Assembly: GCF_054482595.1 (NCBI RefSeq)
Contig: NZ_CM137008.1
Length of the DNA stretch: 64,000 nucleotides
Strand: one strand, 5' to 3'
Shown piece by piece: positions 19,438-52,417 of this stretch (position 1 is the first letter of the stretch; each line of letters starts with the position of its first letter). Under the pieces are notes generated by a model. That model searched no databases. It saw only the letters and a list, made by a program, of their open reading frames with translations, and was not told the DNA's origin. The position numbers and the translations under genes are program-made.

Positions 19438-19844
19438 AACAATTTCCCTTCATTGAATGAATGGAGATTTACCCAAAAACATTTCGGGCGGGATCGAGTA
19501 TACACAACTAAAGCATACGAATTACGGCGCGGGGAATTAGCGATGGCGTTTTAGGATAATTGGAATGAATATCAAATATAAGTTTCAACTTATATTTAAA
19601 TAACAATAAAAATCATAAACTTAAAATAAAAACAAAAGTAATTAATCTGCGTATTTTCCGAAATAAACAACGATTAAAAATCTATTTTAGGATTAACCTC
19701 ACGGTATGATTTCCGTTAAATCACAGACAAGGGGATTTATCTGATAAAACAATGCCGACATAACGTCGGCATTGTTATTAAGGTTATTTAATCAATCGTG
19801 CTATGCATTAATTGCCGAATACGATGTACATATCGGCATCGACC

Positions 19845-19940
<96 letters not shown>

Positions 19941-21599: not shown

Positions 21600-21839
21600 T
21601 AGCAATACTCTTCTGATTTTGAGAATTGTGACTTTGGAAGATTGTAGCGCCAGTCACAGAAAAATGTGATGGTTTTAGTGCCGTTAGCGTAATGTTGAGT
21701 GTAAACCCTTAGCGCAGTGAAGCATTTATTAGCTGAACTACTGACCGCCAGGAGTGGATGAAAAATCCGCATGACCCCGTCGTTGACAACCGCCCCGCTC
21801 ACCCTTTATTTATAAATGTACTACCTGCGCTAGCGCAGG

Positions 21840-22110
21840 CCAGAAGAGGCGCGTTGCCCAAGTAACGGTGTTGGAGGAGCCAGTCCTGTGATAACACCTG
21901 AGGGGGTGCATCGCCGAGGTGATTGAACGGCTGGCCACGTTCATCATCGGCTACAGGGGCTGAATCCCCTGGGTTGTCACCAGAAGCGTTCGCAGTCGGG
22001 CGTTTCGCAAGTGGTGGAGCACTTCTGGGTGAAAATAGTAGCGAAGTATCGCTCTGCGCCCACCCGTCTTCCGCTCTTCCCTTGTGCCAAGGCTGAAAAT
22101 GGATCCCCTG
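21840..22110 (+). promoter_or_regulatory. Lysine riboswitch (LYS element) in the lysC leader
   Basis: Long structured 5' leader directly upstream of lysC with the GAGGCGC...GGTG...GGGG elements typical of the lysC lysine riboswitch; a TTGACA -35 box lies at 21783-21788. Confidence 0.75.
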
Positions 22111-22123
22111 ACACGAGGTAGTT

Positions 22124-23473
22124 ATGTCTGAAATTGTTGTCTCCAAATTTGGCGGTACCAGCGTAGCTGATTTTGACGCCATGAACCGCAGCGCTGATAT
22201 TGTGCTTTCTGATGCCAACGTGCGTTTAGTAGTCCTCTCGGCTTCTGCTGGTATCACTAATCTGCTGGTCGCTTTAGCGGAAGGGCTGGAACCTGGCGAG
22301 CGATTCGAAAAACTCGACGCTATTCGCAACATCCAGTTTGCCATTCTGGAACGTCTGCGTTACCCGAACGTTATCCGTGAAGAGATTGAACGTCTGCTGG
22401 AGAACATTACTGTTCTGGCAGAAGCGGCGGCGCTGGCAACGTCTCCGGCGCTGACAGATGAACTGGTCAGCCACGGCGAGCTGATGTCGACCCTGCTGTT
22501 TGTTGAGATCCTGCGCGAACGCGATGTTCAGGCACAGTGGTTTGATGTACGTAAAGTGATGCGTACCAACGACCGATTTGGTCGTGCAGAGCCAGATGTA
22601 GCCGCGCTGGCGGAACTGGCCGCGCTGCAGCTGCTCCCACGCCTCAATGAAGGCTTAGTGATCACCCAGGGATTTATCGGTAGCGAAAATAAAGGTCGAA
22701 CAACGACGCTTGGCCGTGGAGGCAGCGATTATACGGCAGCCTTGCTGGCGGAGGCTTTACACGCATCTCGTGTTGATATCTGGACCGACGTCCCGGGCAT
22801 CTACACCACCGATCCACGCGTGGTTTCCGCAGCAAAACGCATTGATGAAATCGCGTTTGCCGAAGCGGCAGAGATGGCAACTTTTGGTGCAAAAGTACTG
22901 CATCCGGCAACGTTGCTACCCGCAGTACGCAGCGATATCCCGGTCTTTGTCGGCTCCAGCAAAGACCCACGCGCAGGTGGTACGCTGGTGTGCAATAAAA
23001 CTGAAAATCCGCCGCTGTTCCGCGCGCTGGCGCTTCGTCGCAATCAGACTCTGCTCACTTTGCACAGCCTGAATATGCTGCATTCTCGCGGTTTCCTCGC
23101 GGAAGTTTTCGGCATCCTCGCGCGGCATAATATTTCGGTAGACTTAATCACCACGTCAGAAGTGAGCGTGGCATTAACCCTTGATACCACCGGTTCAACC
23201 TCCACTGGCGATACGTTGCTGACGCAATCTCTGCTGATGGAGCTTTCCGCACTGTGCCGGGTGGAGGTGGAAGAAGGTCTGGCGCTGGTCGCGTTGATTG
23301 GCAATGACCTGTCAAAAGCCTGCGGCGTTGGCAAAGAGGTATTCGGCGTACTGGAACCGTTCAACATTCGCATGATTTGTTACGGCGCATCCAGCCATAA
23401 CCTGTGCTTCCTGGTGCCCGGCGAAGATGCCGAGCAGGTGGTGCAGAAGCTGCATTTTAATTTGTTTGAGTAA
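22124..23473 (+). CDS. lysC: Lysine-sensitive aspartokinase III
   Basis: 449 aa; MSEIVVSKFGGTSVADFDAMNRSADIV N-terminus, two C-terminal ACT domains. Confidence 0.97.
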   Translation: MSEIVVSKFGGTSVADFDAMNRSADIVLSDANVRLVVLSASAGITNLLVALAEGLEPGERFEKLDAIRNIQFAILERLRYPNVIREEIERLLENITVLAEAAALATSPALTDELVSHGELMSTLLFVEILRERDVQAQWFDVRKVMRTNDRFGRAEPDVAALAELAALQLLPRLNEGLVITQGFIGSENKGRTTTLGRGGSDYTAALLAEALHASRVDIWTDVPGIYTTDPRVVSAAKRIDEIAFAEAAEMATFGAKVLHPATLLPAVRSDIPVFVGSSKDPRAGGTLVCNKTENPPLFRALALRRNQTLLTLHSLNMLHSRGFLAEVFGILARHNISVDLITTSEVSVALTLDTTGSTSTGDTLLTQSLLMELSALCRVEVEEGLALVALIGNDLSKACGVGKEVFGVLEPFNIRMICYGASSHNLCFLVPGEDAEQVVQKLHFNLFE

Positions 23474-23725
23474 ATACTGTATGGCCTGGAAGCTATATTT
23501 CGGGCCGTATTGATTTTCTTGTCACTATGCTCATCAATAAACGAGCCTGTACTCTGTTAACCAGCGTCTTTATCGGAGAATAATTGCCTTTAATTTTTTT
23601 ATCTGCATCTCTAATTAATTATCGAAAGAGATAAATAGTTAAGAGAAGGCAAAATGAATATTATCAGTTCTGCTCGCAAACGAATTCCCGTACACTGAAC
23701 TCTCTGGCTCACTGAGGGCACCATC

Positions 23726-23998
23726 ATGGCACTCCCCCGTATTACCCAAAAAGAGATGACTGAGCGCGAGCAGCGTGAACTTAAAACACTGCTGGATCGG
23801 GCGCGGATTGCGCATGGTCGCGTACTGACCAACTCCGAAACCAACAGCATTAAGAAAGAGTACATCGATAAATTAATGGTCGAGCGTGAGGCTGAAGCGA
23901 AAAAAGCCCGCCAGTTAAAGAAAAAGCAGGCTTATAAACCGGATCCTGAAGCGTCATTTAGCTGGTCAGCAAATACGTCGACGCGCGGCAGGCGCTAA
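23726..23998 (+). CDS. yjbD: DUF3811-family small protein
   Basis: 90-aa highly charged protein (MALPRITQKEMTEREQRELKTLLDRARIAHG...); syntenic between lysC and rluF. Confidence 0.8.
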   Translation: MALPRITQKEMTEREQRELKTLLDRARIAHGRVLTNSETNSIKKEYIDKLMVEREAEAKKARQLKKKQAYKPDPEASFSWSANTSTRGRR

Positions 23999-24130
23999 TG
24001 AACAATCAACGCCTGAGATTTTCACTCGTCTGTGTGGACACAATCTTCCCCTCAACCTAACCCTCTCCCCGAAGGGGCGAGGGGACTGTCCGAGCACTTT
24101 TTGGACGTTTTCATCAGTCTGAGGCGTTAA

Positions 24131-25003
24131 TCAGCGTCCCTTCTTTTTACGCCCCGGCGAGGTAAAACGCTTACCGTTGGACGCCGGGCGACCGCCTTTT
24201 TCCGCCGTTTTTTCCATCTTAACGACTGGACGTTTGATGCCCGCCGTTTTCGGTTTAGCCTTCGCTTTAGGTTTTGCCTCGGAAGAGGAATTTTCAATGA
24301 GCTTAAAGAGGTCGATTAACTCATCGTCGGTTAAATCGCGCCACTCCCCCAGTGGAATGCCGCTTAAGCTGACGTTCATAATGCGCGTACGTTCCAGCTT
24401 TTTCACTTCGTAACCAAAGTGCTCACACATGCGACGGATCTGACGGTTCAACCCCTGCACCAGGGTAATGCGGAAGACAAACGGTGCTTCTTTTTTGATT
24501 TTGCACTTTTTCGTCACCGTCCCGAGGATCGGCACTCCCGCCCCCATACCACGAATAAATTCATCGGTAATCGGTTTATCGACCGTTACCAAATACTCTT
24601 TTTCATGATCATTGCCAGCACGCAGGATCTTATTCACCAGATCGCCGTGATTGGTGAGGAAAATCAGCCCCTGGGAGTCTTTATCCAGGCGGCCAATCGG
24701 GAACACGCGTTTGCTGTGGTTAACGAAATCGACAATGTTATCGCGCTCGCCATCTTCGGTGGTGCTGACAATACCGACGGGCTTGTTCAGGGCGATAAGT
24801 ACCAAATCTTCGGCTTCCCGAGGCTCAATCAACTGACCGTTTACTTTCACAACGTCGCCGGGTTTCACCTGATCGCCAATGGTGGCTCGCTTGCCATTAA
24901 GGAACACATTGCCTTGCTCGATATAGCGATCCGCTTCGCGGCGTGAGCAAATTCCGCTTTCGCTGATGTATTTATTTAAACGGACTGATGAGTCGGGCAG
25001 CAT
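24131..25003 (-). CDS. rluF: 23S rRNA pseudouridine synthase F
   Basis: 290 aa; S4 domain at the N-terminus, RsuA/RluF catalytic motif ([14 protein letters not shown]), lysine-rich C-terminal tail. Confidence 0.9.
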
Positions 25004-25350
25004 AAATTCTCCTGTAAAACGCGGAATATACCGTACCTCTTAGCAGGGAAAAACAGAGTTATGCGGCAACGTCGAAATTAAATGTGATCTGCCGCGCCTT
25101 TTATCACAAAAGTGTCTCCGGAAGTACAATGCAAATTTGCGTGGCAAAATAAGGATAATCAACATATTACGAATCGCTGCACACCTGTGCTGATAACTAC
25201 TACGCAGAGAAACAAATGTGCAAGAGAAAGCGCTATTTCTCCCCATGCAAAGAGTGAAAAATCGCTTTGAAAGGCCATCATGATGGGGTTATATCAGATC
25301 AAGCGGTGAGAAAGCGTATTTGCACAAATGTGCAGAACCAGGAGGCGGCA

Positions 25351-26298
25351 ATGGAAAACAGTGACGATATCCGTTTGATTGTGAAGATTGCCCAACTCTA
25401 TTACGAACAGGATATGACGCAGGCGCAAATCGCGCGCGAACTGGGTATTTACCGCACCACCATCAGCCGCTTGCTTAAACGAGGCCGCGATCAGGGAATT
25501 GTCACCATCGCCATCAACTATGACTACAACGAAAATCTCTGGCTGGAGCAGCAACTGAAGCAAAAGTTTGGCCTGAAAGACGTTGTGGTGGTGTCGGGAA
25601 ATGATGAGGATGAAGAGACTCAACTGGCGATGATGGGGTTACACGGCGCGCAACTGCTGGATCGCTTGCTGGAGCCTGGCGATATTGTCGGTTTTTCCTG
25701 GGGTCGCGCGGTGAGCGCACTGGTTGAAAACTTGCCGCAGGCGGGGCAATCGCGGCAGTTAATCTGCGTACCAATTATTGGCGGACCGTCCGGTAAACTC
25801 GAAAGCCGCTATCACGTAAACACATTAACCTACAGCGCGGCAGCGAAGCTGAAAGGGGAATCGCATCTCGCGGATTTTCCGGCTCTACTGGATAACCCAT
25901 TAATTCGTAATGGGATCATGCAGTCTCAGCACTTTAAAACCATCTCTGCCTACTGGGATAATCTGGATGTCGCCCTGGTGGGAATTGGCTCACCGGCCAT
26001 TCGCGACGGCGCTAACTGGCATGCGTTTTATGGTGGTGAAGAGAGTGACGACCTGAATGCCCGCCAGGTTGCTGGCGATATTTGCTCGCGCTTTTTTGAT
26101 ATTCACGGCGCAATGGTTGAAACGAATATGAGCGAAAAAACACTCTCTATCGAAATGAATAAATTAAAGCAGGCGCGGTATTCCATTGGCATTGCCATGA
26201 GTGCAGAAAAATACAGCGGAATTGTTGGTGCACTGCGTGGAAAATATATTAATTGTCTGGTAACGAATAGCAGCACAGCTGAACTATTACTGAAATAA
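25351..26298 (+). CDS. sorC: Sorbose operon transcriptional regulator (SorC family)
   Basis: ATG at 25351 preceded by AGGAGG; 315 aa; N-terminal HTH (MTQAQIARELGIYRTTISRLLKRGRDQG) plus a SorC sugar-binding domain; first gene of a sorbose-type PTS operon. Confidence 0.85.
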   Translation: MENSDDIRLIVKIAQLYYEQDMTQAQIARELGIYRTTISRLLKRGRDQGIVTIAINYDYNENLWLEQQLKQKFGLKDVVVVSGNDEDEETQLAMMGLHGAQLLDRLLEPGDIVGFSWGRAVSALVENLPQAGQSRQLICVPIIGGPSGKLESRYHVNTLTYSAAAKLKGESHLADFPALLDNPLIRNGIMQSQHFKTISAYWDNLDVALVGIGSPAIRDGANWHAFYGGEESDDLNARQVAGDICSRFFDIHGAMVETNMSEKTLSIEMNKLKQARYSIGIAMSAEKYSGIVGALRGKYINCLVTNSSTAELLLK

Positions 26299-42406: not shown

Positions 42407-42540
42407 GCCGGATGCGGCGTAAACGCCTTATCCAGCCTACGTTCGGCAACGGTTGTAGGCATGATAAGACGCGCAAGCGTCGCATCAGGCATCGTGCACC
42501 GATTGCCGGATGCGGCGTAAATGCCTTATCCGGCCTACAG
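42407..42540. repeat. REP/BIME cluster between aceA and aceK
   Basis: Three or four REP palindromes (TGCCGGATGCGGCGTAAACGCCTTATCCAGCCTAC...). Confidence 0.75.
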
Positions 42541-47406: not shown

Positions 47407-47526
47407 ATGCCTGGCAGTTCCCTACTCTCGCATGGGGAGACCCCACACTACCATCGGCGCTACGGCGTTTCACTTCTGAGTTCGGCATGGGGTCAGGTGG
47501 GACCACCGCGCTAAGGCCGCCAGGCA
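47407..47526 (-). rRNA. rrfE: 5S ribosomal RNA
   Basis: 120-nt reverse-complement match to E. coli 5S rRNA (TGCCTGGCGGCC...GGAACTGCCAGGCAT). Confidence 0.98.
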
Positions 47527-47618
47527 AATTCTGTTTTATCAGACCGCTTCTGCGTTCTGATTTAATCTGTATCAGGCTGAAAATCTTCTCTCATCCGCCA
47601 AAACATCTTCGGCGTTGT

Positions 47619-50521
<2,903 letters not shown>

Positions 50522-50714
50522 TCACAACCCGAAGATGTTTCTTTCGATTCATCATCGTGTTGCGAAAATTTGAGAGACTCACGAACAACTCTCGTTGTTC
50601 AGTGTTTCAATTTTCAGCTTGATCCAGATTTTTAAAGAGCAAATATCTCAAACATCACCCGAAGATGAGTTTTGAGATATTAAGGTCGGCGACTTTCACT
50701 CACAAACCAGCAAG

Positions 50715-50790
50715 TGGCGTCCCCTAGGGGATTCGAACCCCTGTTACCGCCGTGAAAGGGCGGTGTCCTGGGCCTCTAGACGAAGGGGAC
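50715..50790 (-). tRNA. gltV: tRNA-Glu (anticodon UUC) in the 16S-23S spacer
   Basis: Reverse complement equals GTCCCCTTCGTCTAGAGGCCCAGGACACCGCCCTTTCACGGCGGTAACAGGGGTTCGAATCCCCTAGGGGACGCCA. Confidence 0.97.
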
Positions 50791-50875
50791 GTATCAGTCT
50801 GCTTCGCAAGACGCCTTGCTTTTCACTTTCTATCAGACAATCTGTGTGAGCACTTCAAAGAACGCTTCTTTAAGG

Positions 50876-52417
<1,542 letters not shown>

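What the first reader, a model, noticed from the sequence alone, without database searches (positions are those of the whole stretch)
24036..24090. GC-rich imperfect hairpin between convergent yjbD and rluF
CCCTCTCCCC-GAAG-GGGCGAGGGG forms an imperfect 10-bp stem in the 132-bp gap between the two convergent genes. It has no clean U-tract on either strand, although CACTTTTTGG follows about 15 nt downstream on the + strand. It may be an atypical bidirectional terminator or a degenerate repeat element.
Basis: seen in the sequence. Interest (0 to 1): 0.2.

Follow-up and report, generated by a model that had tools for sequence, protein, structure and literature searches.

The report
BoxC repeat inserted between yjbD and rluF
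The GC-rich hairpin is one copy of BoxC, a known E. coli repeat found about 15 times per genome, which was inserted in some E. coli strains between two genes that otherwise touch tail to tail; it probably gives the yjbD mRNA a stable end and is not a purpose-built two-way terminator.

Summary
The hairpin is real (24061-24084; 9 Watson-Crick pairs plus one U·C mismatch; -16.9 kcal/mol). It is not a locus-specific terminator. It is the core of a BoxC / PIT / TMECO repeat (Bachellier 1999; Hoyne & Maher; Holder 2015). A 65-bp query around it hits 72,360 places in 5,425 of 5,426 complete E. coli genomes, with a median of 15 per genome. On the minus strand, 24048-24083 matches the commonest "type A mm" TMECO at 35 of 36 bases.

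The whole 132-bp spacer is a derived insertion. About two thirds of E. coli genomes, and 76 of 80 other Enterobacteriaceae species, have yjbD and rluF abutting (0 bp) or sharing TTAA (-4 bp). The insert is flanked by a 9-10-bp direct repeat (AGGCGCTAA / AGGCGTTAA), and both proteins are unchanged.

Published K-12 Term-seq (Adams 2021) places a yjbD-sense RNA 3' end 3 nt after the hairpin, with no U-tract. It also places Rho-dependent termination regions on both strands beyond the spacer. This fits a hairpin that blocks exonucleases after Rho termination, and it does not fit a bidirectional intrinsic terminator.

This is an ordinary, known kind of element. The only mildly new point is the clean before/after insertion site with a duplication.

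The parts
23999..24130 (.). The entire 132-bp yjbD-rluF spacer, which is a derived insertion absent from about two thirds of E. coli genomes and from other Enterobacteriaceae
   Evidence: Filled and empty alleles. Spacer of 0 or -4 bp in 76 of 80 species.
23990..23998 (+). Left copy of the direct repeat AGGCGCTAA (last two codons and stop of yjbD); with T23999 it is 10 bp
   Evidence: Local-alignment score reached by 20 of 2000 shuffles.
24122..24130 (+). Right copy of the direct repeat AGGCGTTAA (8/9 identical to the left copy), directly before the rluF stop. The empty alleles carry a single copy.
24004..24013 (+). AATCAACGCC, which resembles the rluF end of some empty alleles (TAATCAACGCC in L021). 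This suggests the duplication may have been about 17 bp, with a later 7-bp tandem repeat (AATGAAC/AATCAAC). Suggestive only.
24020..24121 (.). Body of the repeat element that is shared with copies at other loci. Similarity to the ppc-argE copy runs over about 24028-24122, and the right end ...CATCAGTCTG is shared by several loci.
   Evidence: (H10).
24048..24083 (-). Three-block TMECO / potential intrastrand-triplex motif: CCCTCGCCCC TTC GGGGAGAGGG TTA GGTTGAGGGG. It is type A (TTA loop) with the family-typical mismatch plus one extra G>T in block 3.
   Evidence: 35/36. Table 1 of Holder 2015.
24061..24084 (+). It forms on both transcripts.
24087..24087 (+). Position equivalent to the K-12 Term-seq 3' end at 4231270 (- strand). 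The yjbD-sense RNA ends ...GGGGCGAGGGGACU.
   Evidence: Adams 2021 supplementary file 1. Coordinates verified on NC_000913.3.
24087..24111 (+). Second, weak hairpin GUCCGAG-CACUU-UUUGGAC (-7.2 kcal/mol) followed by GUUUUCAU. It is terminator-like only, and it lies inside the right arm of the repeat.
24008..24018 (+). Left arm of the outer inverted repeat AACGCCTGAGA, which pairs with 24118-24128 (10 of 11 pairs). Much of it follows from the palindromic target sequence.
24118..24128 (+). Right arm of the outer inverted repeat TCTGAGGCGTT

Best explanation
The hairpin is the core of a BoxC repeat, also called a PIT element or TMECO triplex motif. About 100-120 bp of this repeat was inserted, in an ancestor of roughly one third of E. 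coli strains, exactly at the junction of the tail-to-tail genes yjbD and rluF. That junction has no spacer in the ancestral state. The insertion duplicated at least 9-10 bp of the junction, so both reading frames kept their last codons and stop codons.

Shown: identity as a repeat, the derived status of the insertion, the flanking duplication and the intact proteins.

Inferred, from K-12 data on the orthologous copy: when the element is transcribed as the yjbD 3' UTR, the GC-rich hairpin does not itself stop RNA polymerase efficiently. Transcription runs on into antisense rluF and is ended by Rho. 3'-to-5' exonucleases then trim back to the hairpin, leaving a stable end 3 nt past the stem. rluF transcripts likewise read through and are ended by Rho inside antisense yjbD.

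The element is most simply a selfish or neutral repeat whose hairpin incidentally serves as an mRNA 3'-end protector. It is not an evolved bidirectional terminator.
For: Repeat identity:
- A 65-bp query hits 72,360 places in 5,425/5,426 genomes, with a median of 15 per genome.
- Copies from seven unrelated spacers share an invariant core TTCCCCTCACCCTAACCCTCTCCCCnnnGGGGCGAGGGGAC plus flanking similarity.
- The window copy matches the type A mm TMECO at 35/36 (Holder Table 1).
- BoxC is listed as a known 56-bp, 32-copy E. coli family.

Insertion:
- 1,772 genomes carry the 431-bp filled span. Every shorter allele in the sampled rows has a 299-bp span, and four of these were fetched and have the two CDSs abutting.
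- 76 of 80 other species have a spacer of 0 or -4 bp.
- The insert is flanked by AGGCGCTAA / AGGCGTTAA.
- The same YjbD and RluF protein accessions occur in filled and empty strains.

RNA role:
- K-12 has a Term-seq 3' end at 4231270 (- strand), which is the U of GGGGACU.
- Rho termination regions lie at 4231091 (- strand) and 4231569 (+ strand).
- There is no + strand 3' end in the spacer.
- Other BoxC copies also have 3' ends close to the hairpin: 3 nt past the stem at 3781065 and 847200, and 10 nt past it at 632098.
- A general model exists of Rho-terminated RNAs being trimmed back to U-less stem-loops (Dar & Sorek 2018).
- PIT elements showed no terminator or promoter activity.
Against: - The RNA data come from K-12. 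Its copy differs at 9 of 132 positions, has a decayed inner block (CCCTTTTCCC), and uses the outer block for the stem. Nothing was measured in a strain carrying this allele.
- The 3' end was called in only one of the three growth-condition tabs.
- A weak intrinsic termination event at the hairpin, or at the second hairpin and T-run (24087-24111, flagged), followed by trimming, would give the same 3' end.
- The insertion mechanism is unknown. The direct repeat is short (8/9; p about 0.01 by shuffling) and could instead reflect microhomology used in a templated repair event.
- Three other loci examined did not give clean empty sites.
Confidence: 0.8

Rival explanations
1. The hairpin, alone or together with the second hairpin and T-run, is a genuine Rho-independent terminator. 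It would stop yjbD transcription, and perhaps rluF transcription from the other side, making it an atypical bidirectional terminator.
For: A stable GC-rich stem forms on both strands. A K-12 3' end lies next to the hairpin on the yjbD strand. The consensus scan flags 24087-24107 plus TTTTCATC as terminator-like on the + strand. Convergent genes often share bidirectional terminators.
Against: - No U-tract abuts the main hairpin on either strand.
- The 3' end lies 3 nt after the stem, not in a U-run.
- No rluF-sense 3' end was mapped in the spacer.
- Rho-dependent read-through regions lie beyond the spacer on both strands.
- Reporter assays found no terminator activity for PIT elements.
- The second hairpin is weak (-7.2 kcal/mol, two G·U pairs), and no K-12 3' end maps after it.
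- Most relatives manage with no spacer at all.
Confidence: 0.12
2. The element acts at the DNA level. The three-block motif folds into an intrastrand triplex (H-DNA-like) that stalls replication or promotes rearrangement, and its presence marks a fragile, variable site rather than an RNA signal.
For: The TMECO G-rich strand forms a stable triplex in vitro, and TMECO loci are more variable between strains than control loci (Holder 2015). This locus is itself dimorphic. Other BoxC spacers are occupied by different repeats in different strains.
Against: In vivo DMS footprinting did not support triplex formation. This copy has two imperfect triplets, the family mismatch plus GGT for GGG in block 3, which should weaken any triplex. 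In the 40 sampled rows the locus shows only two states, with no ragged deletions. A DNA-level role also does not exclude the RNA role.
Confidence: 0.15
3. The spacer encodes something: a small protein (a 32-aa GTG ORF at 24032-24130 on the + strand, or a 43-aa ORF at 23966-24097 on the - strand) or a 3'-UTR-derived regulatory sRNA.
For: ORFs of these sizes are listed mechanically. An abundant 3' end exists at the hairpin in K-12.
Against: - The sequence is a copy of a non-coding repeat found in many unrelated spacers in both orientations.
- No Rfam family matches it.
- There is no U-tail for Hfq.
- No promoter-like site lies in the spacer.
- The insert is absent from most relatives.
Confidence: 0.02

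Closest known systems
BoxC repeats of E. coli (Bachellier et al. 1999 survey), also described as PIT elements (Hoyne & Maher 2000/2002) and as TMECO intrastrand-triplex motifs (Holder et al. 2015, PMC4666352)
   Same: It has the same three-block sequence, CCCTCGCCCC-loop-GGGGAGAGGG-TTA-GGGTGAGGGG (35/36). It has the same family-typical internal mismatch, the same intergenic location, the same multi-copy distribution, and shared flanks of about 56 bp or more with other copies.
   Different: Block 3 carries GGT instead of GGG, so Holder's strict search pattern misses this copy. The K-12 orthologue is likewise absent from their list of 23. Here the element sits in a spacer that it created itself, between genes that otherwise abut. 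A flanking direct repeat is visible, which the papers found in the held library do not describe for this family.
REP/BIME elements as mRNA 3'-end stabilisers, and the U-less protective stem-loops of Rho-terminated transcripts (Newbury/Higgins 1987; Dar & Sorek 2018, PMC6061677)
   Same: It is a transcribed intergenic repeat whose stable hairpin lies just upstream of the steady-state RNA 3' end. No U-tract follows, and Rho-dependent termination lies further downstream.
   Different: It is an unrelated sequence family. REP-derived Rfam models (naRNA4) hit four other places in the window but not this one. Exonuclease dependence has not been tested for BoxC.
Bacterial MITEs and other small non-autonomous insertions (e.g. 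ERIC/IRU, Correia/NEMIS, RUP)
   Same: It has a similar size (about 100-130 bp), an imperfectly palindromic build, an intergenic multi-copy distribution, a filled/empty site polymorphism and a flanking direct repeat.
   Different: No clear terminal inverted repeats, no known partner transposase and no association with mobile elements have been reported. The duplication (at least 9-10 bp, possibly 17) was seen at only this one locus.
Canonical intrinsic (Rho-independent) terminators, including bidirectional ones between convergent genes
   Same: It has a GC-rich stem-loop in a convergent spacer, and that stem-loop folds on both strands.
   Different: It lacks the 7-8-nt U-tract on either side. 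The mapped 3' end is not in a U-run, and read-through is documented on both strands.

Membership tests
BoxC repeat family (E. coli) | Sequence homology to other genomic copies over the roughly 56-bp unit | tested here: met
   blastn of 24040-24104 gives 88-95% identity over 56-60 bp to copies in the iscR-trmJ, yihS-yihR, ygfF-gcvP, tkt-ypfG, alx-sstT, purK-ybcF, cstA-ybdD and ppc-argE spacers.
BoxC repeat family (E. coli) | Multi-copy and dispersed (literature: 32 copies in K-12) | tested here: met
   72,360 places in 5,425 genomes, with a median of 15 and a maximum of 26 per genome. Literature value.
BoxC repeat family (E. coli) | Extragenic location | tested here: met
   It lies wholly between the yjbD and rluF stop codons. 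All comparison copies are intergenic.
TMECO intrastrand-triplex motif (Holder 2015 strict pattern) | CCCTCNCCC N3-6 GGGNGAGGG N3 GGGNGAGGG with no mismatch | tested here: not met
   Block 3 reads GGTTGAGGG. The two-block part matches, and the full type A mm sequence matches at 35/36. The strict pattern hits 10 comparison loci but not the K-12 locus L002. This corresponds to the paper's 'TMECO mutated' class.
TMECO intrastrand-triplex motif (Holder 2015) | Forms an intrastrand triplex | not testable with these tools
   This needs CD/NMR or chemical probing. The published in vitro data are for consensus oligonucleotides, and in vivo footprinting was negative.
Intrinsic terminator | Stable GC-rich stem-loop | tested here: met
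   -16.9 kcal/mol.
Intrinsic terminator | U-rich tract of about 7-8 nt immediately 3' of the stem | tested here: not met
   The + strand follows with ACUGUCCGAG and the - strand with UUAGGUUGAG. The terminator scan does not call the main hairpin.
Intrinsic terminator | RNA 3' ends fall in the U-tract and are Rho-independent | tested here: not met
   The K-12 3' end is 3 nt after the stem at ...GGGGACU. BCM-sensitive regions lie downstream on both strands. These are data from the orthologous K-12 copy, not from this strain.
Intrinsic terminator (second hairpin, 24087-24111) | Stem-loop plus T-run | tested here: inconclusive
   It passes the loose consensus scan. However, the stem is only -7.2 kcal/mol with two G·U pairs, the run is only UUUU, and no K-12 3' end was mapped there.
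MITE / transposon-derived insertion | Filled and empty alleles of the same site, with the empty state ancestral | tested here: met
MITE / transposon-derived insertion | Target-site duplication | tested here: inconclusive
   AGGCGCTAA(T) / AGGCGTTAA(T) flank the insert, and the empty alleles have one copy. 20 of 2000 shuffles reach the score. This is only one locus; three other loci were uninformative.
MITE / transposon-derived insertion | Terminal inverted repeats matching a transposase-bearing element | tested here: inconclusive
   The element is internally palindromic. The outer inverted repeat largely reflects the palindromic target. No parent element was searched for or is known.
REP/BIME | REP consensus sequence | tested here: not met
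   REP-derived Rfam models hit 5949-6019, 10178-10248, 19849-19920 and 42458-42535 but not this spacer. The sequence is unlike the REPs seen.

The most novel reading that the evidence does not exclude
BoxC/TMECO elements are, or once were, mobile non-autonomous elements that insert with a long target duplication (at least 9-10 bp, perhaps about 17 bp). The yjbD-rluF junction is a rare clean record of such an event: it has zero spacer in every other lineage examined, and here it is filled by about 110-120 bp with both reading frames preserved by the duplication. That would turn an element so far described only as a 'structure-forming repeat associated with instability' into a transposition-like or templated-repair product with a definable insertion signature.
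Probability: 0.3. Interest if true: 0.4.

Novelty: already known. Interest (0 to 1): 0.15.

Why it matters
The practical value is for annotation. GC-rich hairpins of this exact sequence in E. coli spacers should be labelled BoxC repeats and not treated as candidate terminators or regulators. The MG1655 reference record does not mark the copy at this locus, and no Rfam family matches it.

The locus is also a tidy natural experiment. Strains differ only by the presence or absence of the element between two abutting convergent genes. This would allow a direct test of what a BoxC hairpin does to mRNA 3' ends, antisense read-through and RNA polymerase collisions. If the flanking duplication proves general, it would be the first hint of how this family spreads.

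Tried and rejected
- Rfam with permissive thresholds on the region and at gathering thresholds on the whole window: no family covers the element.
- Promoter scan of the spacer: nothing found.
- The outer inverted repeat (24008-18 / 24118-28) as transposon termini: rejected as firm evidence, because six of its pairs follow from the palindromic target (both genes end in GGCG(C/T)T-stop).
- A search for clean empty sites at other BoxC loci, to test whether the duplication is general. The yihS-yihR short allele carries a different hairpin and shares the right-hand sequence. The purK-ybcF and ppc-argE alternatives carry REP elements instead. tkt-ypfG and iscR-trmJ vary in length but not cleanly. 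None was informative.
- The 17-bp version of the duplication scores only marginally under gapped alignment, so it is reported as a possibility only.
- Literature. The TERMITe supplement has no yjbD or rluF entry. The Dar & Sorek supplement is not held. No paper mentions yjbD together with rluF. No paper in the held library describes BoxC as a MITE.
- The small ORFs in the spacer were dismissed, because the sequence is a dispersed non-coding repeat.

Full report
**Observation.** The window is E. coli. lysC lies at 22124-23473 (+), yjbD at 23726-23998 (+) and rluF at 24131-25003 (-), which leaves a 132-bp convergent spacer. CCCTCTCCCC-GAAG-GGGCGAGGGG is at 24061-24084. It folds with 9 Watson-Crick pairs, one U·C mismatch and a GAA loop, at -16.9 kcal/mol. 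No U-tract abuts it on either strand. Folding energy alone is unremarkable for such GC-rich sequence (z = -0.78 on the + strand, -1.88 on the - strand). The sequence, however, is not a chance product: shuffles of the window expect 0 matches.

**What it is.** A megablast of the spacer against 5,426 complete E. coli genomes showed that its central ~56 bp also occurs at other loci. A blastn of 24040-24104 then found 72,360 places in 5,425 genomes, with a median of 15 and a maximum of 26 per genome. I fetched copies from the iscR-trmJ, yihS-yihR, ygfF-gcvP, tkt-ypfG, alx-sstT, purK-ybcF, cstA-ybdD and ppc-argE spacers. When aligned, they share an invariant core, TTCCCCTCACCCTAACCCTCTCCCCnnnGGGGCGAGGGGAC. 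Weaker similarity extends rightwards to ...CATCAGTCTG (window 24121) and, in the closest relative (ppc-argE), leftwards to about 24028.

This is the BoxC repeat. BoxC is listed as a known 56-bp, 32-copy E. coli family. It was re-described as PIT elements and then as the TMECO intrastrand-triplex motif, CCCTCNCCC N3-6 GGGNGAGGG N3 GGGNGAGGG (Holder et al. 2015). On the minus strand, 24048-24083 reads CCCTCGCCCC TTC GGGGAGAGGG TTA GGTTGAGGGG. That is 35/36 identical to the commonest 'type A mm' form.

- The one extra change (GGT for GGG in block 3) means the strict published pattern misses this copy.
- The K-12 orthologue has a decayed middle block (CCCTTTTCCC) and is absent from Holder's table of 23.
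- No Rfam family covers the element.
- The MG1655 reference record annotates nothing in the spacer.

**The spacer is an insertion.** A 431-bp query spanning both gene ends gave two kinds of allele. In 1,772 genomes the full 431-bp span is present; every shorter allele among the 40 sampled rows spans 299 bp, exactly 132 bp less. Four of these short alleles were fetched, and in each the yjbD CDS ends at the base before the rluF CDS begins.

To establish polarity, I located yjbD relatives in one genome per species and measured the distance to the rluF stop.

- 76 of 80 species have a spacer of 0 bp or a 4-bp overlap (shared TTAA). These include Escherichia albertii, E. whittamii, Salmonella, Citrobacter, Klebsiella, Kluyvera, Raoultella and Enterobacter.
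- Two species have 3 or 12 bp.
- In two species rluF is not adjacent.

The ancestral state is therefore 'no spacer', and the 132 bp is derived.

The insert is flanked by AGGCGCTAA (23990-23998) and AGGCGTTAA (24122-24130), and the empty alleles carry one copy. The 10-bp local alignment is matched by 20 of 2000 shuffles. Inside the left junction, AATCAACGCC resembles the rluF end of some empty alleles (for example L021...GGCGTTAATCAACGCC). The original duplication may therefore have been about 17 bp, with a later 7-bp tandem repeat, but this longer version is only marginal statistically.

Because of the duplication, both genes kept their final codons and stops. The same YjbD (WP_001207638.1) and RluF (WP_000936361.1) accessions occur in a filled strain and in an empty strain. 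The window allele and the K-12 allele share the same junctions, which fits a single insertion event. They have since diverged to 93% identity.

**What it does.** No RNA data exist for this allele, but K-12 carries the orthologous copy.

- Adams et al. 2021 (supplementary file 1) list one Term-seq 3' end in the spacer, at 4231270 on the minus strand, which is yjbD-sense.
- The table gives 50 nt upstream, the end nucleotide and 10 nt downstream; I checked this format against the thrL entry.
- On NC_000913.3, base 4231270 is the U of ...GGGGCGAGGGGACU, 3 nt after the hairpin. This corresponds to window position 24087.
- No rluF-sense end was called in the spacer.
- Their bicyclomycin data list Rho termination regions at 4231091 (- strand; 179 nt further on, inside antisense rluF; window ~24266) and at 4231569 (+ strand; inside antisense yjbD; window ~23788).
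- Other BoxC copies in K-12 also carry 3' ends close to the hairpin: 3 nt past the stem at 3781065 (+) and 847200 (-), and 10 nt past it at 632098 (+).

This pattern is a precise end immediately after a stable, U-less stem-loop, with Rho-dependent termination downstream. Dar & Sorek 2018 describe exactly this for Rho-terminated mRNAs trimmed back by PNPase and RNase II. Earlier reporter assays found no terminator or promoter activity for PIT elements (cited).

I therefore infer that the hairpin works mainly as a 3'-exonuclease barrier for the yjbD transcript and does not work as a bidirectional intrinsic terminator. The inference is indirect. A weak intrinsic contribution cannot be excluded, especially from the second hairpin and T-run (24087-24111; -7.2 kcal/mol).

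**Comparison with what is known, and verdict.** The element is an ordinary member of a known family, so novelty is low. Two points go slightly beyond the papers I could read: this copy created a spacer between genes that abut in every other lineage examined, and it carries a flanking duplication.

I could not test whether such duplications are general. The alternative alleles at yihS-yihR, purK-ybcF and ppc-argE carry other hairpins or REP elements, not empty sites. No paper in the held library treats BoxC as a mobile element, and Holder et al. report no association with mobile elements.

Noticed in passing
window 23996-24133 compared with loci L017-L096: Across Enterobacteriaceae, yjbD and rluF are convergent with their stop codons abutting (0 bp) or sharing TTAA (-4 bp) in 76 of 80 species. 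There is therefore no room for any intergenic terminator, and each transcript must end inside the other gene.
   Followed up: partly
window 21836-22032 (+): A lysine riboswitch (Rfam RF00168, 99.5 bits) lies upstream of lysC, as expected. A terminator-like hairpin with a T-run follows lysC at 23479-23510.
   Followed up: no
window 5949-6019, 10178-10248, 19849-19920, 42458-42535 (all -): There are four matches to Rfam naRNA4 (CssrE), a REP-derived family, and STnc430 at 19634-19783 (+). The window therefore holds several REP-type repeats but only one BoxC copy.
   Followed up: no
window 47409-52417 (-): A complete rRNA operon (5S, 23S, a spacer tRNA at 50718-50790, and 16S), with a StyR-44 match at 50529-50637 just upstream of the 23S rRNA.
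   Followed up: no
window 25267-26298 (+) and L001: Downstream of rluF, this strain has a SorC-type sugar-binding regulator followed by an SDR oxidoreductase, where K-12 has pepE. In strain EC1515 the spacer is 100% identical, but the genes upstream of yjbD are a slipin / nucleotidyltransferase / zeta-toxin cluster instead of lysC. The flanks of this locus vary between strains.
   Followed up: no
L016 1150-1330 versus L100 and L101 (ppc-argE spacer); L010 versus L099 (purK-ybcF spacer): The same intergenic position is occupied by a BoxC-type element in some E. coli strains and by one or more REP elements in others, as if these spacers were shared landing or replacement sites for different repeat families.
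   Followed up: partly
L005 1140-1238 and L008 1140-1239: At ygfF-gcvP and alx-sstT, a type B and a type A TMECO sit head to head as a large palindrome. This is the paired arrangement reported by Holder et al. The left arm of the window element (24014-24047) looks like a decayed remnant of the linker of such a pair, but the similarity is weak.
   Followed up: partly
K-12 coordinates 3781065 (+), 847200 (-), 632098 (+) in Adams 2021 supplementary file 1: Other BoxC copies also carry Term-seq 3' ends close to their hairpins: 3 nt past the stem at 3781065 and 847200, and 10 nt past it at 632098. This suggests that the whole family shapes mRNA 3' ends. I found no statement of this in the papers read.
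   Followed up: partly
window 24020-24033 and 24108-24121: A 14-bp direct repeat, TTTTCACTCGTCTG / TTTTCATCAGTCTG (11/14), brackets the central 74 bp of the element. A related GACATATCAGGCTG occurs in the short yihS-yihR allele. I do not know its meaning; it could be an older, nested duplication or a preferred target.
   Followed up: no
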